Positions 3,095 through 58,874 of a DNA stretch of 64,000 bases are shown piece after piece (position 1 is the first letter of the stretch; each line of letters starts with the position of its first letter). The position numbers and the translations under genes are program-made. A model generated the notes under the pieces. It had not been told where the DNA came from. It saw only the letters and a list, made by a program, of their open reading frames with translations, and ran no database searches. This DNA comes from Candidatus Scatocola faecipullorum (lineage in GTDB: Bacteria; Pseudomonadota; Alphaproteobacteria; RF32; CAG-239): contig DVNC01000021.1 in NCBI GenBank assembly GCA_018714685.1, positions 12,693 to 76,692 on the forward strand, read 5' to 3'.

Positions 3095-3856
3095 TTAATC
3101 GAGACTGTTTTCAATCAGACGGTCAAGATTATCCCGTTCATGGACGTTATAACCGTCAAAATTCTCTTCGATTTTGGCGGCTTTTTTCTTGTTCGCCGCT
3201 TTCGACTTAACTTGCGGCTGAGCCAGTTTTTCAAACAAGTCTTCATTACCTTTTGACGGGGTTTCCTTTTCTTCTTCCGCATCGAAGGCTTTGTCTTTTT
3301 CGGCGGTGTTGTCATCTTTTTCATCACTCTTGCCGCCGACTTCTTTGGCTTTATTGCGAATCGTATCCAATGTCTCCCGCGGGATAAGGTTTTCTATCGG
3401 CTGGGCAAATTCGCCGGCTAACTGAAAATAGCGCGAGTTTTTGAAAGTTTCCGGCTGACGGTCTTTGGGCATAATCCAACTGATGAGAATATTGAGCAGG
3501 ATAACCAGCAAAAAAGCGCGCATAATACCAAAAAACAATCCCAAAACCCGGTCAACCGAGCTTAATTTGCTGGAGCGCACCTTGCCGACGATGTTTCCGG
3601 TCAGCAGAATCCAGATAACCATAAACAAAATCAGAATAAAAATAGAGGTTACAACTCCGGCAATCATTCCGTTGGCGATATACTCCTTGGTTATCGGGGT
3701 GAAAACCGGCAGCAGATAGATAACGGCAGCAGAACCCAGCACCCAGCCGATAATCGACAGGACTTCCTTTATCAGACCGCGGCTGAGCGCAATCAGAGCC
3801 GACAGGCCGAGGATAATCAAAATGATGATATCAAGATTATTTAAGGGCTGAGACAT
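3095..3856 (-). CDS. cvpA: CvpA family membrane protein with charged C-terminal tail
   Basis: N-terminal LDIIILIILGLSALIALSRGLIKEVLSIIGW is typical of CvpA. Several TM helices, then a K/E-rich tail. Confidence 0.75.
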   Translation of the reverse strand: MSQPLNNLDIIILIILGLSALIALSRGLIKEVLSIIGWVLGSAAVIYLLPVFTPITKEYIANGMIAGVVTSIFILILFMVIWILLTGNIVGKVRSSKLSSVDRVLGLFFGIMRAFLLVILLNILISWIMPKDRQPETFKNSRYFQLAGEFAQPIENLIPRETLDTIRNKAKEVGGKSDEKDDNTAEKDKAFDAEEEKETPSKGNEDLFEKLAQPQVKSKAANKKKAAKIEENFDGYNVHERDNLDRLIENSLD

Positions 3857-47608: not shown

Positions 47609-50488
47609 ATGACTGATAAAATTTACAATATTCCGGCGGGTTGTGCCTTTGCCGAAGTTCTGGCCGGGCATTTTCTGAGAGAGTACCACGGCCGGGAACT
47701 GGAGCTGACGGATGTTCTTTTTCTGCTGCCGAACCGCCGGGCGGTTAAGGCGCTGAAAGACGCTTTTGTGCGTTTGCAAGGGCTGGCGCCGACACTGCTG
47801 CCGCAGATGCTGCCTATCGGCGACGTGGAAGAAGACGAGCTGTTTCTGACCGGATTTGACCAGTCTTCCGCTTTGGCAACGCTGGCACCGGCTATCAGCC
47901 GGGCGGAGAGGCTGTTGCTGTTCACCAAAATCATTATGGCCAAACCGATAGAGTACGGTATTGAAAAACTGGCGGCGAATCAGGCCTGCTATCTGGCGCA
48001 GGAACTGGCTAATCTGATTGATACGGTTCACAATCAGGGCCTTTCGTTTGACCGGCTGACAGATTTGGTGCCGGAAGAATATGCCGTTCATTGGCAGGAA
48101 ACGCTCAAATTTTTGCAGATTATTACCGAATATTGGCCGCAGATTTTGGCCGAACGGCAATTGATTGACGCCAGTGACCGTCGTAACCGTCTGCTGCGGG
48201 CGCAGATTGATTTGTGGCGGCAGAATCCGCCGGTCAAACGAATTGTCGCAGCCGGAACGACGGCTGCCTTTCCGCTGATGAAAGAACTGGTTAAAACGGT
48301 GCTTAGTCTGGAAAAAGGAGAGCTTTATCTGGCGGGAATCGACAAGTTTCTGGAAGACGAGGCCTGGGAAAAAATTGATGAGACGCATCCGCAGCACGAA
48401 TTGAAAGAACTGTTGGATTATCTGACAGTTCGACGGGAAGATATTCCCGATTTGCAGGCACCGGAAAATTTCGGCCGGGAAGTTTTAATCAGCGAGGTTA
48501 TGCGTCCGGCGGCCACTACCGAAAAATGGCGGGATATTGCCGGTAAGAAAATCAGGCATGAGGCGGCGGACGGTATAACGCTGGTTAACTGTGCCGATAT
48601 GCGGGAGGAAGCTCTGACCATTGCTCTGTTGCTGCGAGAGGCGGTTGAAACGCCGGAAAAAACGGCGGCATTGGTTACCGGGGACAGAAATCTGGCGCGG
48701 CGGGTGGCTGCCGAATTGGAACGCTGGAACCTGAAAGTGGATGATTCTGCCGGTAAGCCGCTGGCCTTGACACCGCTGGGCATTTTTCTGCGGCTGACGG
48801 TTCAGGCTTGTGAAGAAGAGTTTCGTCCGGTTGCTTTTCTGAGTTTGCTCAAACATCCGCTGACCTGTTTGGGAGAAGACGGGTTTCTGGTGCGCAAAGC
48901 GGCCCGCGAGTATGAAAAGAAAGTTTTGCGCAGCGGCAAAGAGGATGAAACCCTGACCGCTTTTGTCCTGCGGTTTAAAGAGGCCATGCGTGATTTGGCG
49001 GAAGCTTTGCGGCAGCCGGCGGTTGATTTTAAGAATTTATTGGCGCTGCATATTAAAACGGCGGAAGTTTTGGCTGCGGTTCCGGGGAAAGACGGAGCTC
49101 AGGTTTTGTGGAAAGGCGATGCCGGAGAAGCAGCTGCCGCTTTTATTGCCGATTTGTATGCCGAAGCCGGCGTTTTGGGAGAGATCAGCGGTGGTGAATA
49201 TCGCGGTTTGCTGGAGGCATTGATGGCCGGGGTAACGGTTCGTCCGAAATACGGCACCCATCCGCGCCTGAGCATTTTGGGGCCGATAGAAGCCCGTCTG
49301 GTGCATTTTGACCGGGTTATTATCGGCGAAGTGAATGAAAATATCTGGCCGCAGGCCGTAACGGCCGATCCCTGGATGTCGCGGCCGATGAAGCGGGAGT
49401 TCGGTTTTCCTCTGCCGGAGCGGACGGTCGGGGTCGGGGCTTATGATTTCAGTCAGCTGCTGGCGAATGAAGAGGTTTATCTGACCCGGGCGGAAAGAGT
49501 GGCGGGGACGCCGATGGTCAAGTCCCGCTGGTGGATGCGTTTGGAAACGGTTCTGAAGGCGCTGAATATTCCGATTGAAAATTTGGAAGATGTTGTTTTT
49601 CGCAGCTGGGCGAGATTTCTTGACCGCAGCGAGACGTTTACCCGTTTGCTGCCGCCGGCGCCGAAACCTCCGGTGAGCGCCCGGCCGCGGGAGTTGTCGG
49701 CCAGTGCGGTGGAATACTGGATGCGTGACCCGTATATTATTTTTGCCAAATACATTTTGCGGCTGAAAAAGCTGGACGATTTGGAACAAGAAGTTACCTT
49801 TGCCGATTACGGTACGATTATCCATGCGGTTTTAGAGCAGTTTAACCGCAAATATAACCGTCAGTTTCCGCCAAATGCCAAGGAAGAACTGCTGGCTTTG
49901 GGACGGGCTTATTTTGCGGAAAACGAAATTGCCGCCGAAACCAGAGCTTTCTGGTGGCCTCATTTTGAAAAGACGGTTGACTGGCTGGTTACGGCGGAAA
50001 ACGATTATCGTCCGTCGGTCCGTGAAGTGCATAACGAGGTTCAGGGGCGTTTCCGTTTTGAAGCGCCGGCCGGTCCTTTTACCATTACGGCCAAAGCCGA
50101 CCGGGTAGATGAAACTGCCGACGGGCGGATTAATATCATTGATTATAAAACCGGAGAAGCTCGCAGTCCGAAAGAAGTGCGCGCCGGTTATGCGCCGCAG
50201 TTGCCGATAGAAGCTTTGATTGCCCGGGAAGGCGGTTTTGACGGTATTCCGGCGAAAGAGGTTGCCGCCCTGATTTATTGGCAGCTCGGGCGCAAAGAAA
50301 CGCGGTTGGACGAAGAGGTGGACGATATTTTGAACACCAATTTGAAAAATCTGCGGGAGCTGGCGACATTATTTGATTTTCCCGATACCGCCTATATCAG
50401 TAAGCCCAATCCGCGTTATGCGCCGAAATATTCGGATTATGAACAGTTGGCGAGGGTAAAGGAGTGGTCCGTTGTTGAGGAAGAATAG
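47609..50488 (+). CDS. addB: Double-strand break repair protein AddB (alphaproteobacterial type)
   Basis: 959 aa, C-terminal PD-(D/E)xK nuclease motif (ADRVDE...INIIDYKTGE), immediately upstream of addA. Confidence 0.85.
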   Translation: MTDKIYNIPAGCAFAEVLAGHFLREYHGRELELTDVLFLLPNRRAVKALKDAFVRLQGLAPTLLPQMLPIGDVEEDELFLTGFDQSSALATLAPAISRAERLLLFTKIIMAKPIEYGIEKLAANQACYLAQELANLIDTVHNQGLSFDRLTDLVPEEYAVHWQETLKFLQIITEYWPQILAERQLIDASDRRNRLLRAQIDLWRQNPPVKRIVAAGTTAAFPLMKELVKTVLSLEKGELYLAGIDKFLEDEAWEKIDETHPQHELKELLDYLTVRREDIPDLQAPENFGREVLISEVMRPAATTEKWRDIAGKKIRHEAADGITLVNCADMREEALTIALLLREAVETPEKTAALVTGDRNLARRVAAELERWNLKVDDSAGKPLALTPLGIFLRLTVQACEEEFRPVAFLSLLKHPLTCLGEDGFLVRKAAREYEKKVLRSGKEDETLTAFVLRFKEAMRDLAEALRQPAVDFKNLLALHIKTAEVLAAVPGKDGAQVLWKGDAGEAAAAFIADLYAEAGVLGEISGGEYRGLLEALMAGVTVRPKYGTHPRLSILGPIEARLVHFDRVIIGEVNENIWPQAVTADPWMSRPMKREFGFPLPERTVGVGAYDFSQLLANEEVYLTRAERVAGTPMVKSRWWMRLETVLKALNIPIENLEDVVFRSWARFLDRSETFTRLLPPAPKPPVSARPRELSASAVEYWMRDPYIIFAKYILRLKKLDDLEQEVTFADYGTIIHAVLEQFNRKYNRQFPPNAKEELLALGRAYFAENEIAAETRAFWWPHFEKTVDWLVTAENDYRPSVREVHNEVQGRFRFEAPAGPFTITAKADRVDETADGRINIIDYKTGEARSPKEVRAGYAPQLPIEALIAREGGFDGIPAKEVAALIYWQLGRKETRLDEEVDDILNTNLKNLRELATLFDFPDTAYISKPNPRYAPKYSDYEQLARVKEWSVVEEE

Positions 50489-50596
50489 TTTTATTGAAGA
50501 CCCGGAGACATTATCCGGTGCTCAAATGCTCACATACTGCTATGTCCGCTCCGCTTCTGTGCTCCGTGTGGTTTCACTTCAATTTCAGGAGTTGTT

Positions 50597-53500
50597 ATGA
50601 TGAACGGCGAAGATATTTCCGCGGCACGAAAAGAGCGGGGAAAATTAGCGACCGCGCAGCAGCGGCGGGCGGCGAATCCGCTTAAATCCGTCTGGGTGGA
50701 AGCATCGGCGGGAACCGGCAAAACCAAGGTGTTGTCTGACAGGGTTCTGCGGTTGCTGCTGAGCGGCGTAGCGCCGTCAAAAATTCTTTGTTTGACCTAT
50801 ACCAAAGCGGCGGCGGTGGAAATGAGCTCACGCATTGCCGGGCGGCTCAGCCGCTGGGCAGTTGCTGATGACGAAACACTTCATAAAGAGCTTTCAGCAT
50901 TGTTGGGAAATCTGCCGGACAGCCGGGAAGCATATATAAAACTGGAAGCGACGGCAAGGCAGTTGTTTGCAGTTTTGCTGGATACGCCGGGAGGAATGAA
51001 AATTCAGACCATACACAGTTTTTGTCAGGAAATTTTAAAAAGATTTCCTTTAGAGGCAAGAATTTCGCCGTATTTTGAGGTGATGGACGACCGCACGGCT
51101 TCCGAGGCTTTGGCAGATATTCAGAAAAAACTGTTGCAAAAAATTGAAGATGAACCGGAGAGTGCAGTCGGGCAGGCTTTGGCTTTTCTGACCCGGCAGG
51201 TGAGCGAATTCAAATTTCCCCAGATTATGGAGACAATTGCCGCTAACCGGAACAAAATCAGCAAACTTTTATCGGCGTATCCCGACGAGTTGGCTCTGCG
51301 GGCTGCCTTGGCAGCACGGCTGGAAGTTAATCCGGATGACAGCGAATCGTCTTTGCGGCAACGATATATGGCCGGTCTTAACCGGACTGATTTGAAAGAG
51401 CTGCGTGAGGCCTGGTTTAAAGGGACTGCAACCGATGTTAAAAATGCAGAGGTTTTGGCCGGACTGGCGGAGAGAGAGTTTCCGGCGGAGGAGTTTGAAA
51501 CTTTTCAAAAGCTGTTTTTAACCAAGGAAGGAAAACCCAAAGCCAAGGCCGGCAGCAAAGGAGCCCTGGCCGCCTGTCCGCGGCTGGAGGAGATTTTTTA
51601 CCGCGAAGCGGAAAATTTGTCGGAGTTGGAAAGCAAAGCTGCCGGTCTGCGGGTTTTTGCTTCGACGGCGGCGGTTCTGAGTTTGGCGGAGGAACTTATC
51701 GGCGGTTATAACCGTTATAAAAAAATCCATTCCAAAATGGATTATGAAGATTTGATTGTTTTAACCAGAGATTTGTTGGAAAACAAAAGCGTGGCCGATT
51801 GGGTGCTTTATAAGCTGGACGGCGGTATTGATCATGTGTTGATTGACGAAGCACAAGACACTTCGCCCAACCAATGGGCAATTGTCAAAGCGGTGACGGA
51901 GGAGTTTTTTAACGGATTGGGGGCCGCGGACAAAGTACGGACGGTTTTTGCCGTGGGTGACCGCAAACAGTCGATTTACAGTTTTCAGGGGGCCGATCCG
52001 CGGGAATTTGAAAATATGCGGCGGTATTTTGCGGCAAAGGCTTCTAATTTTGATGAAGTGAAACTTGAAGTTTCTTTCCGTTCAACGGCAACGGTGCTGG
52101 ACAGCGTGAATACGGTTTTTGGCGATGAGTATGCCAAGCAGGGCGTGGTTCTGGAAGGTGAAGACATAACGCATATTCCGTTTCGTCTGGGAGACGGCGG
52201 ACGGGTGGAACTCTGGCCGCTGGTCGAGCCGCAGGAAGGCGAAAATCCCGATATGTGGCGGCCGCCGGTGGAGCGCGTGCCGGGGGAATCGACCTCATCG
52301 CGACTGGCCAAGATGATTGCCGCCAAAATTAAAGAGCAGGTCTCGCGCGGGGATATTCTGGTTTCGCAGAACCGGTCGGTGCGCTACCGCGACTATATGA
52401 TTTTGGTGCAGCGGCGCAACAGCTTTGTTGAGGAGATGGTGCGTGAATGCAAAAACGTCGGAGTTAACGTTTCGGGGGTGGATAAAATCAGGCTGCTGGA
52501 ACAAATTGCGGTGCAGGATTTGGTGGCACTGGGCCAGTTTCTGCTGTTGCCGACCGATGATTTGACCTTGGCGACGGTTTTGAAATCGCCGTTGTTCGGT
52601 TTGAATGACGATGATTTGTTTGTGCTATGTTATAATCGCGGCGGGGTTTCGGTTTGGACCAGACTGTGCGATAACCCGGATTACCGCCGGACGTATCTGC
52701 AACTGCGGGAACTGTTGGATATGGCGGATTATGTACGTCCGTTTGAGCTATACGGCTATGTGCTCAACAAGCAGGGCGGCCGTAAGAAATTTGTCGAGCG
52801 TATGGGGCTGGAGGTTGAAGACGGGCTGGACGAGTTTGTTAATTTGACGCTGGCTTATGAGCAGGAACATATACCGAGTTTGCAGGGGTTTGTGCAGTGG
52901 ATTGCCGGCGACGAGGTCGAAATAAAGCGCGAGCTGGAGCAAAGCGAGGCCGATGCGGTGCGGATTATGACGGTTCACGGTTCCAAAGGTTTGCAGGCAC
53001 CGATAGTTATTCTGCCGGATACGGTGCGAATGGTAAATGTGCGGAAAGAAAGCGGCCTGTTGTGGGATGATTTGTTTTATTATCCGCTTTCTTCGGGGGA
53101 TTATGACAAGAACTGCAACCGGATTAAAGACGAAGAAATTATCCGTGCCAATGAGGAATATAAGCGGCTGTTGTATGTGGCTTTGACCCGTGCGGAAGAT
53201 CGGCTTTGTATTTGCGGTTACCGTAAAGGAACAGCAGTTAAAGACGAATCATGGTACGGTATTTGCAAACGCAGTCTGTCGGCTATCGGGCAGACGGACG
53301 AAACTGAAAAAGTTGTGTACGAAACGCCGCAGGAACTGGATGTTGCCGCGGTACAGACAGGTGTTACCAAAGAACTGACACGGCCGGATTTTCCGTGGCT
53401 GACGCAGCCGGCCGCAGAAGAAAATCCTCTGGCAAAACCTTATACGCCGTCGCGGCCGGATGAAGATGACAACGATGTGGCTCTGGTGTCTCCCATCGGC

Positions 53501-53980
53501 GAAGACGGTTCAAACCGTTACCGCCGCGGACGGATTATTCATAAGCTGCTTCAGTTTATGCCGGATGTTCATTCTGCCGATAAGGCGCAGATTATTGATG
53601 AGTTTTTACGGAAAAATGCGCCGGAACTGACGTCGGCGCAGGCCGGGCGAATCCGCGAAGAGGTTTTGACGCTGCTGAATAATCCGCAATTCGGTTCGTT
53701 GTTCGGTCCGGGATCGAAGGCTGAAGTTCCGGTTATCGGCGAGGCGGACGGCAAAATTATTTCCGCGCAGGTTGACCGTTTGGTGGTGACGGAAAACAAG
53801 GTTATGATTGTTGATTTTAAAACGAATCGACCGGCCGCCAAAACGCCGGCTGACGTGCCTCCGGTTTATGTCAAACAGCTGCGGGCCTACCGGGACTTGC
53901 TGGCTCGCATTTATCCGGCAAAACAAGTGCAAAGCTATATCTTGTGGACGGATACGGCGCAGATTATGCAGATTGAGTGA
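50597..53980 (+). CDS. addA: Double-strand break repair helicase/nuclease AddA
   Basis: UvrD-like helicase motifs (ASAGTGKTKVL, DEAQDTSP, VGDRKQSIY, TVHGSKGL) and a C-terminal nuclease domain, 1127 aa. Confidence 0.9.
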   Translation: MMNGEDISAARKERGKLATAQQRRAANPLKSVWVEASAGTGKTKVLSDRVLRLLLSGVAPSKILCLTYTKAAAVEMSSRIAGRLSRWAVADDETLHKELSALLGNLPDSREAYIKLEATARQLFAVLLDTPGGMKIQTIHSFCQEILKRFPLEARISPYFEVMDDRTASEALADIQKKLLQKIEDEPESAVGQALAFLTRQVSEFKFPQIMETIAANRNKISKLLSAYPDELALRAALAARLEVNPDDSESSLRQRYMAGLNRTDLKELREAWFKGTATDVKNAEVLAGLAEREFPAEEFETFQKLFLTKEGKPKAKAGSKGALAACPRLEEIFYREAENLSELESKAAGLRVFASTAAVLSLAEELIGGYNRYKKIHSKMDYEDLIVLTRDLLENKSVADWVLYKLDGGIDHVLIDEAQDTSPNQWAIVKAVTEEFFNGLGAADKVRTVFAVGDRKQSIYSFQGADPREFENMRRYFAAKASNFDEVKLEVSFRSTATVLDSVNTVFGDEYAKQGVVLEGEDITHIPFRLGDGGRVELWPLVEPQEGENPDMWRPPVERVPGESTSSRLAKMIAAKIKEQVSRGDILVSQNRSVRYRDYMILVQRRNSFVEEMVRECKNVGVNVSGVDKIRLLEQIAVQDLVALGQFLLLPTDDLTLATVLKSPLFGLNDDDLFVLCYNRGGVSVWTRLCDNPDYRRTYLQLRELLDMADYVRPFELYGYVLNKQGGRKKFVERMGLEVEDGLDEFVNLTLAYEQEHIPSLQGFVQWIAGDEVEIKRELEQSEADAVRIMTVHGSKGLQAPIVILPDTVRMVNVRKESGLLWDDLFYYPLSSGDYDKNCNRIKDEEIIRANEEYKRLLYVALTRAEDRLCICGYRKGTAVKDESWYGICKRSLSAIGQTDETEKVVYETPQELDVAAVQTGVTKELTRPDFPWLTQPAAEENPLAKPYTPSRPDEDDNDVALVSPIGEDGSNRYRRGRIIHKLLQFMPDVHSADKAQIIDEFLRKNAPELTSAQAGRIREEVLTLLNNPQFGSLFGPGSKAEVPVIGEADGKIISAQVDRLVVTENKVMIVDFKTNRPAAKTPADVPPVYVKQLRAYRDLLARIYPAKQVQSYILWTDTAQIMQIE

Positions 53981-54495: not shown

Positions 54496-55398
54496 ATGCT
54501 TTGGATTATCGACGGCCTGATTTACGGTTTTTTTACGGCGTTATATACGCTGGTGAACCAGCATTATAAGTTTAACGGTTATTTGCTGGGAATCTGGCGC
54601 GGGTTCGGAATATCTTTTTTCTTTCTGCCGTTTTTGTTTTTTCTGCCGGTTCCCGATGATGCTTATTATTATTTTCTGCTGATTTTTCAAGGTTTTTTAA
54701 TCGGCGTATATGATTCACATCTGTTTTTTGCTTCGGCAGATTACGGAGCGGGGCCGACTTCCCGGGTTATGGCTTTGTCGGCGCTGATTACAACGATTTT
54801 CTGGTGGTTTTTGACCCCGCATTTGTTTTGGGGTTTATTGCAGAACGCAACGGTGTTTATGAGCCTAATCTTAGTTTTGTTCGGGTTTACGGTGAGCTAT
54901 TGGCAAATGGTGCAGTCGCCGGTTTCCAAAGCGTTGGTTTGGTATATGTTTCCGGTTGTTTTTGCTTTTGCGGGAATGAGCATTATTACCAAAGAAATTG
55001 CCCTGCACGGTTCAAACGCCTGGCAGGGTGTGGCCTATTATCTGACCGTGGCAACGTTTGTCAGCGGCTGTTATAACAGTTATTGGTATGCCAAAACGGT
55101 TAAACCCGGTTTAAAGGGCTTTTTCAAAAACGTTTTTGAATGGAAACTGGTTAAGGCCGGTTTGTATGTCGTCAGTTTCAGTTGGGCTCTGATTACGGCC
55201 AAAACACTGGCTTTGCGGATTGCTCCCAATCCGGGATATGTGATTGCTTTGCTGCTGACGTCGCCGATTTTTGTTTTTGTGCTGAACAGGTATCGTAAAG
55301 TTCCGGACAATATTTCGGTTAAGGCCGGTTTTTCGATGATTTTTTTTCTTTTTCTGCTTTTGCTGCTGGTGAACGGTAATTACGGAGTGATTGACTAA
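54496..55398 (+). CDS. Hypothetical polytopic inner-membrane protein (300 aa)
   Basis: About 9 hydrophobic helices and no catalytic motif. Confidence 0.4.
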   Translation: MLWIIDGLIYGFFTALYTLVNQHYKFNGYLLGIWRGFGISFFFLPFLFFLPVPDDAYYYFLLIFQGFLIGVYDSHLFFASADYGAGPTSRVMALSALITTIFWWFLTPHLFWGLLQNATVFMSLILVLFGFTVSYWQMVQSPVSKALVWYMFPVVFAFAGMSIITKEIALHGSNAWQGVAYYLTVATFVSGCYNSYWYAKTVKPGLKGFFKNVFEWKLVKAGLYVVSFSWALITAKTLALRIAPNPGYVIALLLTSPIFVFVLNRYRKVPDNISVKAGFSMIFFLFLLLLLVNGNYGVID

Positions 55399-57041
55399 CG
55401 GCAGAGTTCTTCGATGATTTTGTTGAGAAGCAAAAAACCCCGGTTGGCGGCGCGCAGGCTGTGCTTGTCTTCAAACAGAAGTTTTTGCCGGATTAAGCTT
55501 TGTCTGGCTTTGTCATTGACAAAGCCGGTCAGTTCCAATCCGCATTGGCGGCGGAAGTTTTCTTTGTTGATTCCTTCACGGATGCGCAATCCCATAATAA
55601 TCAATTCTTCCGCCCGTTCCTGCGGGGTCAGTTCTTCCAGTTGCCGATGGTGGGTCGAGGCATAAATTTTATCGGTTGTTTTGATGCGTCCGTGGGCGGC
55701 GGGGCCAATCCCGAGATAGTTTTGTCCGCGCCAATAGGCCAGATTATGGATTGATTCATAACCGGGGTGGGCAAAGTTGGAAACTTCATATTGCGGATAG
55801 CCTTTTGTTGCCAAAAATTCCTGTGTCAGCGCATAGAGTTCGGCTGCCGGTTCATCATCCATCGGTTTGATGCCTTTGCGGGCAAAAAAGGTGCCTTCTT
55901 CGATGGTCAGTTGGTAGAGCGAGAGATGTTTCAGGCCGAGTTCGCTTATCTGGTTCAGTTCTTGTTTCCAGGCTTCCGCGGTTTGTCCGGGCCGGGCGTA
56001 AATCAGGTCGGCAGAGTGGTTGTCAAACAGCCGTGTTACTTCGTCAACGGCGTGGAGTGCCCGGCTTAAATTATGGGTTCGTCCGAGGAATTTAAGGTCT
56101 TTGTCGTTCAAAGCCTGAATGCCTAAAGACAGACGGTTGATGCCGGCCAGTCGGAGGTCGGCAAAGAGGTTGGGGCGATTGGTGTTGGGGTTCGCTTCAA
56201 GTGAAATTTCCACCTGTTTTGTTGTCGGCCAGAGTTTGAAAATATGATTAATTACTTTTTCAATGTACTGCGGTTCAATCAATGAGGGCGTGCCGCCGCC
56301 GAAAAAAATACTCTGGACGGTTTGTTTGGCCGTCAGGTCGTGATACCAGTTTAAGTCGTCCAGATAACCGTCAATAATTTGTTTTTGATCAACATGCTTG
56401 TCAACTTTGCTGAAAAAATCGCAATAGGGGCATTTGCTTAAGCAGTAGGGCCAGTGAATGTAAACAGACAGGGGAACAATGATTTTATTGGTCTTCTGCA
56501 GGCGTCTTCCGGTGCTCGCGTCCTCACGTACGTCTGTGTACGCTGCGGTTCTGCGCTCCGTGGAGCCACCAGCATAAGCCTCACTAAAATCATTGTTGAA
56601 AAAAGCATTGGTCTTCTGCGGGTGTCTTCCGGTGCTCGCGTCTTCATGTAATTCCCGTGAGGCATAATTCTCTTCTAACCTCCCCTTAATATTAAGGGGA
56701 GGAACGGTAGGGATTAAGTTTGTTATTTGTGAAAGACAGCCTTCAATATTTTCCAGAATATCATTATTCCAAAAGCGAAGAATTTTACAACCGCGTTTTT
56801 TTATATAATTATCGCGAATATCATCCTGATGATTATCATTATGTTGCCCGCCGTTAATTTCAATTATTAATTTGAGCGAAGCACAATAAAAATCGACAAT
56901 ATATTTGTTATCAAAAACATATTGTCTTTGAAAACGTACTCCTAATTGTCGTTTGCGCAGTTTTTGCCATAACAATTTTTCAGCATTTGTTTGGTTGCTG
57001 CGCAATTGACGGGAGTAAGTTATCAGTTGCTTTTCCATCAC
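55395..57041 (-). CDS. hemW: Radical-SAM heme chaperone HemW (HemN-like) with N-terminal DUF559 endonuclease-like extension
   Basis: C-terminal ~360 aa match HemW/YggW ([20 protein letters not shown] radical-SAM CxxxCxxC, GGGTPS). N-terminal ~125 aa is a complete DUF559 domain (…[18 protein letters not shown]…IVDFYC…IIEINGGQH…), joined to HemW by a repeat-containing linker. Confidence 0.8.
56488..56700. repeat. Intragenic direct repeats (2 x 43 nt) and a 24-nt perfect palindrome in the hemW 5' extension
   Basis: ttggtcttctgcaggcgtcttccggtgctcgcgtcctcacgta at 56488-56530 and ttggtcttctgcgggtgtcttccggtgctcgcgtcttcatgta at 56608-56650. Each unit translates as EDASTGRxxQKTN. Palindrome cctccccttaatattaaggggagg at about 56679-56702. 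Confidence 0.7.
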
Positions 57042-58348
57042 AGAATAAATTTGGACAAGTCGCTGGCTTCCGTGTATTTGGCAAGCTTTTCCTCAACCAT
57101 GGCGGCGGTGATGACGGCCATTTCGCCGCTGCGGTCGGAAGCGCTGAAGCTGATGTCTTCCAGCAGTATTTCCAGAACCGTGTGCAGCCGGCGGGCGCCG
57201 ATGTTTTCGACGTTTTCGTTGATGATGACGGCCATATCGGCAATTTTTTCAATGGCTTCGGGTTCAAATTCCAAGTCAAAATTCTCGGTCTTCATCAGGG
57301 CAACATATTGCTCAATCAGATTGGCTTCCGGTTCGGTGAGAATTTTGACGAAGTCTTCGTGAGTGAGGGCTTTCAGTTCAACCCGAATGGGCAGCCGTCC
57401 CTGCAATTCCGGCAGCAGGTCGGAAGGTTTTGACAAGTGAAAGGCGCCGGAACAAATAAACAGGATATGGTCGGTTCTGACCATACCGTATTTGGTGGCG
57501 ACAGTGGTGCCCTCAATTAACGGCAACAGGTCGCGCTGAACGCCTTCGCGGGAGATGTCGCTGCCGCGGCGGTCGTCTTTGCCGGATATCTTGTCGATTT
57601 CGTCAATGAAGACGATACCGTCGTTTTCAACCGCTTTAATGGCTTCGCGGGTGATGAGGTCATTGTCGAGCAGTTTGTCGCTTTCTTCTTCCATCAGCAC
57701 TTTATACGCATCGCCGACGGTCATTTTCTTGGTTTTGTATTTGTCACCGAAAGGTTTGCCGATTAAGTCGCCCAGGCTTATCATTCCCATTTGGGCACCG
57801 GGCATGCCGGGAATGTCAATGGTCGGCATGGAGGTGTTGCCGTTGTCGAGAACGCTGATTTCAATTTCTTTATCGTTAAGCTGGTTTTCCCGCAGCAGTT
57901 TGCGGAACTTTTGTCTGGTTTCCTCTCCGGCATTGACGCCGACTAATGCTTCCAGCACGCGTTCTTCGGCGGCAATTTCCGCTTTGGCGGCAACGCTTTT
58001 GCGCATTTCTTCTTTGGTGGTGTGCAGCGCATTTTCCAACAGATCGCGGATGATGGATTCAACGTCACGGCCAACATAGCCGATTTCTGTAAATTTGGTA
58101 GCTTCCACTTTGATAAAAGGCGCTTTGGCCAGTTTGGCCAGGCGGCGGGAAATTTCGGTTTTGCCGACCCCGGTGGGGCCAACCATTAAAATGTTTTTGG
58201 GAACGATTTCTTCCTTTAATCGGTCGGGAAGCTGCATACGGCGCCAACGGTTGCGCAGGGCAACGGCAACGGCTTTTTTGGCTTCACATTGGCCGACAAT
58301 AAAGCGGTCAAGTTCGGATACGATTTCGCGGGGGCTGAATACGGCCAT
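57038..58348 (-). CDS. hslU: ATP-dependent protease ATPase subunit HslU
   Basis: MTPREIV-like N-terminus, Walker A GPTGVGKT, 436 aa. Downstream of hslV. Confidence 0.95.
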
Positions 58349-58349
58349 T

Positions 58350-58874
58350 TTAATCTACCTTTTCTATAATGACGTTATGGTTGGTATAGACATCAATGTC
58401 ACCGGCTATTTTAAGCGCTTTGCGGGCAATTTCCTCAAGACTCAGTCCGTCGATGTCGTAGAGCGCTTTGGCTGCGGCCATGGCAAAATTTCCGCCGCTG
58501 CCGATGCCGATGATGCCGTCATCGGGTTCCATAACTTCACCGGTGCCGGAAATGACCAGCGAAACGTCTTTGTCGGCCACTATCATATAAGCCTGCAGCT
58601 GGCGGAGGTATTTGTCCATACGCCAGTCTTTGGCCAACTCGACGGCGGCACGTTTCAGCTGGTTGGCGTGTTTTTCCAATTTGCCTTCAAGGCGTTCGAT
58701 GAGTGTGATGCCGTCGGCGGCGGCGCCGGCGAAACCGGCAATGATTTTGCCGTTGCCGATACGGCGGACTTTAACCGATTTTGATTTAAAAACGATTGAT
58801 TCTCCCAAAGTGGCCTGACCGTCGCCGGCCATGACAACTTCATTTCCCTTGCGGACGCATAAAATGGTGGTCAT
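58350..58874 (-). CDS. hslV: ATP-dependent protease subunit HslV
   Basis: N-terminal Thr after Met (MTTIL), GDGQ, GSGG motifs, 174 aa. Confidence 0.95.

What the first reader, a model, noticed from the sequence alone, without database searches (positions are those of the whole stretch)
55395..57041. hemW carries an in-frame N-terminal DUF559 endonuclease-like domain plus a linker built from direct repeats and a palindrome
The HemW radical-SAM core has no Met near its usual start (…[15 protein letters not shown]). The ORF instead continues upstream through a ~60-aa linker into a complete DUF559 domain. The linker holds two 43-nt direct repeats, each encoding EDASTGR(H/R)xQKTN, spaced 120 nt apart, plus a perfect 24-nt palindrome. 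This pattern resembles in-frame insertion of a small selfish or palindromic element, like RPE-type insertions in Rickettsia. It would create either a chimeric DUF559-HemW protein or a disrupted start.
Basis: seen in the sequence. Interest (0 to 1): 0.6.

Follow-up and report, generated by a model that had tools for sequence, protein, structure and literature searches.

The report
Rickettsia-type palindromic repeat fuses DUF559 to HemW
In this gut alphaproteobacterium the heme chaperone gene hemW is read as one protein with an endonuclease-like DUF559 domain, joined by a disordered tether that is a relative of the "Rickettsia palindromic element" RPE1, a repeat so far described only in Rickettsia.

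Summary
The ORF 55395..57038(-) encodes 547 aa: DUF559, an ~80-aa linker, then HemW. There is no in-frame ATG/GTG/TTG for 171 codons upstream of the HemW core.

The linker is an RPE1-family palindromic element array. It holds one full 123-nt hairpin unit, an internally deleted unit, and a 24-nt palindrome. The window unit scores 30.0-30.7 bits against NCBIfam TIGR01045 (cutoff 30). Orthologous units in related species score 42-71 bits.

Other copies sit in truA (98% identical) and in the addB-addA spacer (window 50474-50602). Related species carry 1-3 units at the same hslU|hemW junction. One has an empty site.

Hairpin arms covary (17 of 32 pairs compensatory). The 54-nt core is 89-96% identical between species whose hemW third codon positions are 37-50% identical.

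The DUF559 fusion occurs in three species, with dN/dS 0.08-0.14. Within this species the linker varies in unit number, and a common allele deletes DUF559. AlphaFold2 predicts a disordered linker.

Verdict: a genuine chimeric gene built on a tolerated selfish palindromic element. It is a new variant of a known kind, in an unexpected host.

The parts
55395..57038 (-). Complete fusion CDS (547 aa from the ATG at 57038; stop at 55395-55397): DUF559 - RPE1-derived linker - HemW
   Evidence: identical 547-aa protein annotated as HemW of Candidatus Scatocola faecipullorum
57036..57040 (-). TGATG overlap: the hslU stop (TGA 57040-57038) shares its A with the fusion ATG (57038-57036). This is a translational-coupling arrangement.
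   Evidence: same layout in L084 and L086
56715..57026 (-). DUF559 endonuclease-like domain (Pfam residues 6-109). AT-rich (GC 0.32 against 0.49-0.52 in the flanks). This allele has N where relatives and PDB 3HRL have D in E-x-D-G-G-Q-H.
56679..56702 (.). Perfect 24-nt palindrome CCTCCCCTTAATATTAAGGGGAGG, read as PPLNIKGR. It is nt-identical in three species and extended to 44 nt in one. Its left half resembles the canonical RPE1 right arm (inference).
56607..56678 (-). Degenerate first RPE1 unit with its centre deleted. The right half (56607-56650) is the upstream 44-nt direct repeat. The orthologous unit is intact in the P0177 species.
56598..56606 (-). 9-nt spacer GCTTTTTTC between units. 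It contains the T6 run at which frameshift variant P0122 differs.
56475..56597 (-). Full RPE1-family unit: 123-nt imperfect hairpin with 13-nt terminal inverted repeats AACAATGATTTTA/TAAAATCATTGTT. It encodes [41 protein letters not shown] and contains the invariant 54-nt core.
   Evidence: CM 137.7 bits
55398..56474 (-). HemW proper ([11 protein letters not shown]... to the end). The radical-SAM CxxxCxxC motif is at 56421-56444.
   Evidence: pLDDT >90
50474..50602 (-). Third, degenerate RPE1-family copy in the addB (47609-50488) / addA (50597-53980) spacer, antisense to both genes. Orthologous copies lie in the same spacer in L071 and L067.
   Evidence: (84.4 bits, E 7e-20)
57038..58874 (-). 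hslV (58350-58874) and hslU (57038-58348), the upstream cistrons of the same operon. No terminator-like site lies between them and the fusion gene.

Best explanation
What it is. A palindromic element of the RPE1 family entered the short spacer between hslU and hemW in an ancestor of this gut alphaproteobacterial clade. RPE1 is the family first described as selfish DNA inside Rickettsia genes. The unit is a ~123-nt imperfect hairpin with an invariant 54-nt core.

How it became coding. The element has no stop codon in the hemW frame. Where the native hemW ATG was lost, translation has to begin upstream. One to three tandem units then became a disordered N-terminal extension of HemW.

The DUF559 fusion. 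In the Scatocola lineage an AT-rich DUF559 endonuclease-like ORF sits in frame between the hslU stop and this array. Its ATG overlaps the hslU stop.

The product. The window gene is translated, coupled to hslU, as one 547-aa protein: a folded DUF559 domain, an ~80-aa RPE1-derived flexible tether, and a normal radical-SAM HemW.

Ongoing variation. The tandem structure keeps rearranging. Recombination between the 44-nt repeats adds or removes 120-nt units. A 6-nt microhomology (ATGCTG) deletion removes DUF559 in many strains.

Shown: domain content, element family, hairpin, other copies, empty site, orthologous arrays, alleles, selection ratios, predicted disorder.

Inferred: that the whole ORF is translated, the order of events, and that the element is tolerated rather than useful.
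For: Architecture. Domains and the lack of internal starts. The ATG/stop overlap.

RPE1 membership. TIGR01045 is the only NCBIfam family hit by the linker. Scores are 30.0-30.7 bits for the window unit, 42.6 for L060, 71.3 for L076, 50 for P0124. 18 of 28 distinct HemW N-termini of the clade hit it.

Hairpin. Fold z = -6. In 12 copies, 89.5% of cells are paired against 33-41% when partners are slid. 17 of 32 pairs have compensatory changes, and 0 of 500 shuffles reach this.

Dispersal. The truA copy is 121/123 identical. TruA cluster members and HemW hits report the same longest-contig lengths, 302,859 and 377,549, which suggests one genome but was not confirmed. The addB-addA spacer copy is in the window and in two other species.

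Insertion. Empty site in L088: hslU TAA, 12 nt, ATG hemW, same synteny.

Orthologous arrays. Species with 57-67% HemW identity carry arrays at the same junction.

Fusion conserved and selected. P0177 and P0178 species share the layout. DUF559 dN/dS is 0.08-0.14 against HemW 0.07-0.13.

Alleles. Palindrome-to-hemW distances of 84, 204 and 324 nt, and a DUF559 deletion (7 of about 30 scan-derived hemW loci (L012-L077); P0187 cluster has 429 members).

hemW is functional. Within the species pN/pS is 0.25, with intact motifs.

Structure. AlphaFold2 gives HemW pLDDT >90 and linker residues 110-186 pLDDT 21-30 with no secondary structure.

Literature. RPEs are 100-150 bp hairpins inserted in frame in Rickettsia genes, retained in orthologs and tolerated in active enzymes (PMC3767692, PMC2229807, PMC10969869).
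Against: No expression or protein data exist for this uncultured organism. Translation of the full ORF is therefore inferred.

The window unit only just reaches the TIGR01045 cutoff, and only model positions 14-33 of 48 align.

No Rickettsia RPE1 DNA could be obtained for a nucleotide-level comparison.

The core is far more conserved than neutral decay of an immobile selfish element predicts: 89-96% against 37-50% at hemW third positions. A non-coding copy keeps it too. That argues for some nucleotide-level constraint.

Only three loci were found, so this is not a high-copy repeat. No target-site duplication or transposase was identified.

The common DUF559 deletion allele sits awkwardly with the strong between-species purifying selection on DUF559.
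Confidence: 0.72

Rival explanations
1. The hairpin is a host-beneficial cis element, not selfish DNA. It would be a structured RNA or a protein-bound DNA hairpin placed at intercistronic junctions (hslU|hemW, addB|addA). There it could set relative expression or mRNA stability. Its being translated would be incidental.
For: The core is invariant while the arms covary. Core nt identity is 89-96% against 37-50% at hemW third positions. The core is kept in a non-coding copy (L067) and when read in another frame (species X). The element sits at the same three loci in several species. Two of the three loci are spacers inside operons.
Against: S. faecipullorum strains carry alleles without any hairpin (84-nt allele, 5 loci) and with variable unit number. 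Clade members with an empty site or a plain terminator do without it. The truA copy lies inside a coding region. G.T (15) and A.C (14) cells in variable stem pairs are balanced, so no single RNA strand is favoured. There is no Rfam match. Template-switch correction of quasi-palindromes can keep arms complementary without selection (established knowledge).
Confidence: 0.15
2. HemW is made on its own. Either a non-canonical internal start is used (for example ATC/ATT in AAT AAA ATC ATT GTT), or the fusion is cleaved in the linker. DUF559 and HemW would then act as separate proteins.
For: The linker is predicted disordered, which could make it accessible to proteases. In some relatives the native ATG survives 9-11 codons before the core, inside the right arm (L010, P0158, P0164). 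The deletion allele shows HemW works without the DUF559 domain.
Against: In the window no ATG/GTG/TTG lies within 171 codons upstream, and no Shine-Dalgarno motif precedes KIIV. In L071 the only in-frame start is 97 codons upstream. The frame has stayed open through all units and alleles in all species examined.
Confidence: 0.08
3. DUF559 is only a decaying passenger. It would be kept solely because it now carries the start codon for hemW.
For: The deletion allele keeps just DUF559 codons 1-19. The window allele has N62 at the conserved D. Within the species pN/pS is 0.56 against 0.25 for HemW.
Against: Between three species DUF559 dN/dS is 0.08-0.14 and amino-acid identity is 82%, as constrained as HemW itself. 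A mere spacer would approach 1.
Confidence: 0.04
4. Artefact or pseudogene: either a misassembly across repeats or a hemW with a destroyed start.
For: Repeat-induced chimeric contigs do exist (L039 at 1.5x coverage, L011).
Against: The same 547-aa ORF appears in more than 120 variants from independent assemblies, on contigs up to 552 kb. The same layout occurs in three species. hemW is under purifying selection.
Confidence: 0.01

Closest known systems
Rickettsia palindromic element RPE1 (NCBIfam TIGR01045; Ogata et al. 2000, 2002, as summarised in PMC3767692, PMC2229807, PMC10969869)
   Same: Both are ~100-150-nt imperfect hairpins with terminal inverted repeats. Both are open in frame and inserted inside conserved genes without breaking them, as well as in spacers. 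Both are retained at the same sites in orthologs of related species, and the encoded segment is tolerated. The peptide matches the RPE1 model above its curated cutoff.
   Different: The host is a gut Rhodospirillales-affiliated alphaproteobacterium, not Rickettsia. Only three loci were found, against tens in Rickettsia. Units form in-frame tandem arrays that vary in number between strains. The array sits at the extreme 5' end and has taken over the gene's start. It bridges a domain fusion. The window unit matches only the central 20 positions of the 48-position model, because its arms have diverged.
Wolbachia palindromic elements (WPE; Ogata, Suhre and Claverie 2005, cited in PMC3767692)
   Same: They are protein-coding palindromic repeats in a non-Rickettsia alphaproteobacterium.
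   Different: WPEs are linked to RPE-4/6/7 rather than RPE1 (PMC3767692), and Wolbachia is still in the Rickettsiales.
Bacterial MITEs and REP-type intercistronic hairpins (ERIC, Correia, REP)
   Same: They are small hairpin repeats, found both intergenic and occasionally fused in frame. Their location between cistrons of an operon resembles the hslU|hemW and addB|addA positions.
   Different: MITEs keep a specific terminal inverted-repeat sequence and target-site duplications. Here the arms drift freely while the centre is invariant, and no duplication or cognate transposase was seen.
Stand-alone DUF559 proteins (PF04480; PDB 3HRL; E. coli YcjD-type)
   Same: The ~105-aa endonuclease-like domain is the same (109 bits; 3HRL E 1e-17).
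   Different: DUF559 homologs on plasmid and chromid records are annotated as DUF559 or endonuclease domain-containing proteins, and the matches span ~290-320 nt, i.e. only the ~100-aa domain. Here the domain has no stop codon and continues into HemW. This window allele carries N at the conserved D.

Membership tests
RPE1 palindromic element (TIGR01045) | The translation matches the RPE1 profile at or above the curated cutoff (30 bits) | tested here: met
   The window 41-aa unit scores 30.0 and the 63-aa stretch 30.7, which is borderline. The whole protein scores 25. Orthologous units score: L060 42.6 (model positions 11-44 of 48), L076 71.3, P0124 50, L071 35.5. 18 of 28 clade N-termini hit at E<=1e-3, and no other family is hit.
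RPE1 palindromic element (TIGR01045) | A 100-150 bp palindromic unit folding into a long stem-loop with terminal inverted repeats | tested here: met
   The unit is 123 nt with 13-nt perfect termini. Fold z = -6. The hairpin is conserved with 17 of 32 compensatory pairs.
RPE1 palindromic element (TIGR01045) | Repeated at several loci of one genome, both in frame within genes and in intergenic DNA | tested here: met
   hemW, truA (121/123 identical) and the addB-addA spacer. Copy number appears low: a CM scan of the 64-kb window finds only two loci. The whole genome was not available.
RPE1 palindromic element (TIGR01045) | Evidence of insertion: orthologs without the element | tested here: met
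   In L088 the hslU stop is followed by 12 nt and then the hemW ATG, in identical synteny. L089 also has no element. HemW of L001 starts MSLEPLAVYIHW.
RPE1 palindromic element (TIGR01045) | Nucleotide-level homology to Rickettsia RPE1 copies | not testable with these tools
   No Rickettsia genome sequence could be reached. Plasmid, PDB and short-peptide searches gave nothing.
RPE1 palindromic element (TIGR01045) | Restricted to the genus Rickettsia, as the family was named and described | tested here: not met
   The host is Candidatus Scatocola faecipullorum, placed in Rhodospirillales by NCBI.
MITE (generic) | Target-site duplication and a related autonomous transposase | tested here: inconclusive
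   No duplication is visible at unit borders. The filled and empty sites come from species too diverged to compare base by base. No transposase search was made.
DUF559 (PF04480) | Pfam profile above the gathering score, covering the whole domain | tested here: met
   109.2 bits against 20.6, profile positions 3-107 of 109. PDB 3HRL E 1e-17.
DUF559 (PF04480) | Conserved acidic residue of the E-x-D-G-G-Q-H motif | tested here: not met
   The window has E-I-N-G-G-Q-H. 3HRL, the P0001 allele, P0177 and P0178 all have D. 11 of 26 sampled S. faecipullorum sequences have D.
HemW (TIGR00539) | Equivalog score above the cutoff, a CxxxCxxC radical-SAM motif and a HemN_C domain | tested here: met
   274.1 bits against 205.4. 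CLSKCPYC lies at 56421-56444. HemN_C E 6e-11. The model has pLDDT >90.

The most novel reading that the evidence does not exclude
The RPE1 core may not be junk. It would be a functional nucleic-acid module: a protein-recognised hairpin or structured RNA, shared by Rickettsia and an unrelated gut alphaproteobacterial clade. It would be maintained by selection at intercistronic junctions (hslU|hemW, addB|addA). RPE1 elements would then be a conserved regulatory or recombination signal that has been misread as selfish DNA for 25 years.
Probability: 0.15. Interest if true: 0.85.

Novelty: new variant of a known kind. Interest (0 to 1): 0.6.

Why it matters
RPEs are the textbook case of selfish DNA living inside protein-coding genes. 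The papers held here describe them only from Rickettsia, with related elements in Wolbachia.

This locus shows an RPE1-family element in free-living gut Alphaproteobacteria. It sits at orthologous sites across species whose HemW proteins are only ~60% identical.

The locus also shows three stages of how such an element can remodel a gene:
- Insertion into an intercistronic spacer, with an empty site still seen in one species.
- Absorption into the downstream ORF as a disordered N-terminal extension once the native start is lost.
- Use as the tether of a new two-domain protein (DUF559-HemW) that is kept under purifying selection in three species.

The contrast between an invariant 54-nt core and freely covarying arms makes an old question directly testable. 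Are RPE hairpins maintained by selection, or by palindrome-correcting mutation?

Practically, the repeat causes chimeric metagenome contigs and inconsistent start-codon calls for hemW in this clade.

Tried and rejected
Searches that led nowhere:
- The genome-contig scan with the HemW part returned no close relative and not the source genome. Only a 45%-identical HemW (L001) was found.
- Tandem Repeats Finder reports nothing, because 1.36 copies fall below its threshold.
- Rfam gives no meaningful match.
- A 41-aa RPE1-like peptide query against the 5.8-billion protein set failed for lack of shared words.
- Searches for RPE1-like peptides in PDB and plasmids found nothing.
- The two viral-contig pattern hits are chance matches, with no CM hit.
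- Ogata et al. 2002 (PMC186582) is not held. No Rickettsia RPE1 sequence could be compared.
- About 21 of the 66 metagenome pattern hits are chance matches in unrelated genes such as thiolase.

Ideas considered and dropped:
- An RNA thermometer or Shine-Dalgarno-sequestering hairpin. Left arms often contain an AAGGAGG-like motif. However, an in-frame start downstream of it exists only in species X and L060, and the stems (-45 to -60 kcal/mol) are too stable.
- Programmed frameshifting at the 24-nt palindrome to release DUF559 alone. The +1-frame stop is not conserved (8, 57 and 37 codons downstream in the three species). The -1-frame TAA is merely part of the palindrome, and I saw no slippery heptamer upstream.
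- DUF559 as a neutral passenger. This was my reading after the deletion allele and N62. It was overturned by the between-species dN/dS of about 0.1.
- An internal promoter creating a HemW-only transcript. Promoter-like sites are at chance level, and no start codon would follow.
- Contigs L011 and L039, which join truA and hemW. I treat these as repeat-induced assembly chimeras, not rearrangements.
Full report
OBSERVATION

The minus-strand ORF 55395..57041 is real. It starts with GTG-ATG, and public proteins start at the ATG (57038), giving 547 aa.

- Domains: Pfam finds DUF559 at residues 6-109 (109 bits), Radical_SAM at 194-362 and HemN_C at 471-538. NCBIfam gives HemW TIGR00539 at 274 bits, cutoff 205.
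- Repeats: the direct repeat is 44 nt (56487-56530 and 56607-56650, 91%, spacing 120). The perfect 24-nt palindrome is at 56679-56702. Neither occurs in shuffled sequence.
- Start codons: there is no in-frame ATG, GTG or TTG for 171 codons upstream of YIHWP.
- Operon context: the fusion ATG shares one base with the hslU stop (TGATG). No terminator-like site separates hslV-hslU from it.
- Source: the organism is Candidatus Scatocola faecipullorum, an uncultured gut alphaproteobacterium that NCBI places in Rhodospirillales. More than 120 near-identical copies of the protein come from independent assemblies, so this is not an assembly artefact.

WHAT THE LINKER IS

The two 44-nt repeats are the right halves of 1.36 tandem copies of a 120-nt unit.

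A 587-aa allele (P0001) has exactly one more 40-aa unit, in the same synteny, on 17 contigs.

NCBIfam flagged residues 159-178 as TIGR01045, the Rickettsia palindromic element RPE1. Scores against the cutoff of 30 bits:

| Sequence | TIGR01045 bits |
|---|---|
| Window unit, isolated | 30.0-30.7 |
| L071 | 35.5 |
| L060 (model positions 11-44 of 48) | 42.6 |
| P0124 | 50 |
| L076 | 71.3 |

Of 28 distinct HemW N-terminal regions collected from the clade, 18 hit TIGR01045 at E <= 1e-3. No other family is hit.

OTHER COPIES AND THE EMPTY SITE

A profile search of 1.84 billion representative proteins with the 85-aa linker found only five clusters:
- the protein itself;
- a frameshifted fragment (P0122);
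- a HemW N-terminus from another species with two units and its own ATG;
- two TruA fragments carrying the same unit in frame.

One metagenome scan for the core 19-mer gave 66 loci, of which about 45 are real. From these and from nhmmer/CM searches:

- truA. S. faecipullorum truA carries the unit just before the VxGAGRTDAGVHA strand. It is 121/123 identical to the hemW unit. TruA cluster members and HemW hits list the same longest-contig lengths, 302,859 and 377,549. This suggests one genome, but the two look-ups did not return those contigs.
- addB-addA spacer. A third, degenerate copy lies in the window at 50474-50602(-), in the spacer between addB and addA (84 bits). Orthologous copies lie in the same spacer in two other species.
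- hslU|hemW arrays. At least five other species, with HemW only 57-67% identical to this one, carry 1.4-3 tandem units at the same junction.
- Empty site. One relative with identical synteny has hslU TAA, 12 nt, then ATG hemW (L088). Another has a plain terminator and no element (L089).
- Native start. In some species the native ATG survives inside the right arm (PQ-M-TFYQGFGIY against M-AFYQGFGIY in the empty site). In others, including this window and L071, it is gone and the only start lies upstream of the units.

This is the series expected for insertion into the intercistronic spacer followed by absorption into the ORF.

STRUCTURE AND CONSERVATION OF THE ELEMENT

In an alignment of 12 copies the hairpin is kept:
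- 89.5% of cells are paired, against 33-41% when partners are slid.
- 17 of 32 pairs have changes on both sides.
- 0 of 500 shuffles reach any measure.

The arms differ almost completely between species, but a central 54 nt is nearly invariant. It is 89-96% identical between species whose hemW third codon positions are 37-50% identical.

The core is kept in a non-coding copy (L067). In species X its left half is read in another frame. The constraint is therefore on nucleotides, not on the peptide.

G.T and A.C cells in variable stem pairs are balanced (15 against 14). That gives no sign that one RNA strand is the selected molecule. It fits DNA-level maintenance of a palindrome, for instance by template-switch correction (established knowledge).

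There is no Rfam match. No copies were found on plasmids or viral contigs.

THE DUF559 MODULE

I first read DUF559 as a passenger, for four reasons:
- More distant relatives lack it.
- It is AT-rich: GC 0.32 against about 0.5 in the flanks.
- 7 of about 30 scan-derived hemW loci (L012-L077) carry a deletion. It joins DUF559 codon 19 to the middle of the unit at a 6-nt microhomology, ATGCTG. The corresponding protein cluster P0187 has 429 members.
- The window allele has N at the conserved D of E-x-D-G-G-Q-H, compared with PDB 3HRL and the other alleles.

A later search overturned the simple version of this reading. Two other species (P0177, P0178) have the same hslV-hslU-DUF559-RPE-HemW layout. 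Between the three species:

| Region | dN/dS | aa identity |
|---|---|---|
| DUF559 | 0.08-0.14 | 82% |
| HemW | 0.07-0.13 | 74-84% |
| hslU | 0.02 | 94-96% |

Synonymous divergence (dS) across these comparisons is 0.7-2.2. The domain is thus a selected part of a fusion that predates these species, yet it is dispensable in many strains of one of them. That pattern is usual for accessory genes.

The P0177 species has an intact first unit where the window has an internally deleted one. The upstream '44-nt repeat' is therefore the remnant of a second full unit.

The 24-nt palindrome is nucleotide-identical in all three species. In one of them it is a 44-nt perfect palindrome. Its left half resembles the canonical RPE1 right arm (CTTCCCCTTAAAAC in L060 and L076). 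I take it to be an old unit junction, but that is inference.

PROTEIN MODEL

AlphaFold2 was run on a 40-sequence alignment:
- HemW: pLDDT above 90.
- DUF559: an alpha/beta domain at pLDDT 50-75. Only five DUF559-bearing rows were available, one of them with just the first 19 residues.
- Residues 110-186: pLDDT 21-30, with no secondary structure.

The RPE1-derived segment behaves as a flexible tether. This agrees with what is reported for RPE inserts in Rickettsia proteins (PMC2229807, PMC3767692).

MECHANISM AND RIVALS

Most likely (0.72): one 547-aa protein is made by translation coupled to hslU. It consists of a DUF559 domain, an RPE1-derived tether and a normal HemW. The element is a tolerated selfish palindrome whose tandem structure keeps generating length alleles.

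The main rival (0.15) is that the hairpin is a useful cis element at operon junctions. The core conservation supports it. The hairpin-less alleles, the empty sites and the intragenic truA copy argue against it.

An internal non-canonical start or cleavage in the linker (0.08) cannot be excluded without protein data.

COMPARISON AND NOVELTY

In anatomy and in profile membership this is an RPE1-family element. It fails only the host criterion and could not be compared at DNA level.

In the papers held here, RPEs are described from Rickettsia, with related WPEs in Wolbachia (PMC3767692, PMC2229807, PMC10969869). A search for RPE1 terms found only Rickettsia work.

New features here:
- the host clade;
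- in-frame tandem arrays that vary between strains;
- takeover of a gene's start;
- use of the array as the tether of a conserved domain fusion.

I rate this a new variant of a known kind, with interest 0.6.

Noticed in passing
window 50474-50602 (-): A degenerate RPE1-family hairpin lies in the 108-nt spacer between addB (47609-50488) and addA (50597-53980), antisense to both. The same spacer holds a copy in two other species (L071 2288-2419, L067 3418-3549).
   Followed up: yes
window 56438-56665 (-): A 75-aa alternative-frame ORF starts at an ATG 13 nt after the palindrome's GGGGAGG, runs through both units and ends inside hemW. P0122 (199 aa) is a database protein that switches into this frame at the T6 run of the 9-nt spacer (56598-56606). 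This could be a sequencing error or a slippage variant that would switch hemW off.
   Followed up: partly
L011 (1278-1625) and L039: Two short, low-coverage metagenome contigs join truA and hemW through the shared repeat: hslU-DUF559(1-19)-unit-truA in L011, and truA 5' end-unit-hemW in L039. They are probably assembly chimeras. This repeat is a hazard for binning and gene calling in this species.
   Followed up: partly
L009 813-880: In another species the truA copy is followed by a short deletion and frameshift just before the catalytic RTDAGVHA motif, so truA is called as two genes. This is either a pseudogene or an error in a single contig.
   Followed up: no
window 56650-57100: The DUF559 segment has GC 0.32-0.35 between neighbours at 0.49-0.54. 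The same 0.32 is kept in two other species whose flanking genes differ in GC (0.39-0.52).
   Followed up: yes
L084 around 3330-3375 (P0178 species): The 24-nt palindrome of the window is a 44-nt perfect palindrome here: CCCCTCCTCTCCTCCCCTTAAT|ATTAAGGGGAGGAGAGGAGGGG. It lies inside the coding sequence. That is unusually long for a stable perfect palindrome in a bacterial gene.
   Followed up: partly
L010 4339-4902: In the species of GCA_030536665.1 an unrelated 187-aa ORF on the opposite strand lies between hslU and the RPE1-extended hemW. The hslU-hemW junction seems prone to acquiring foreign genes.
   Followed up: no
HemW homologs P0152-P0195: Gene callers disagree on hemW starts in this clade, with lengths from 361 to 510 aa. 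Whether the RPE1 units are included depends on the start chosen. Some 364-aa calls start at the native ATG.
   Followed up: partly
window 55395-55398: The hemW stop overlaps by 4 nt the stop of the convergent 300-aa membrane-protein ORF (54496-55398, + strand).
   Followed up: no
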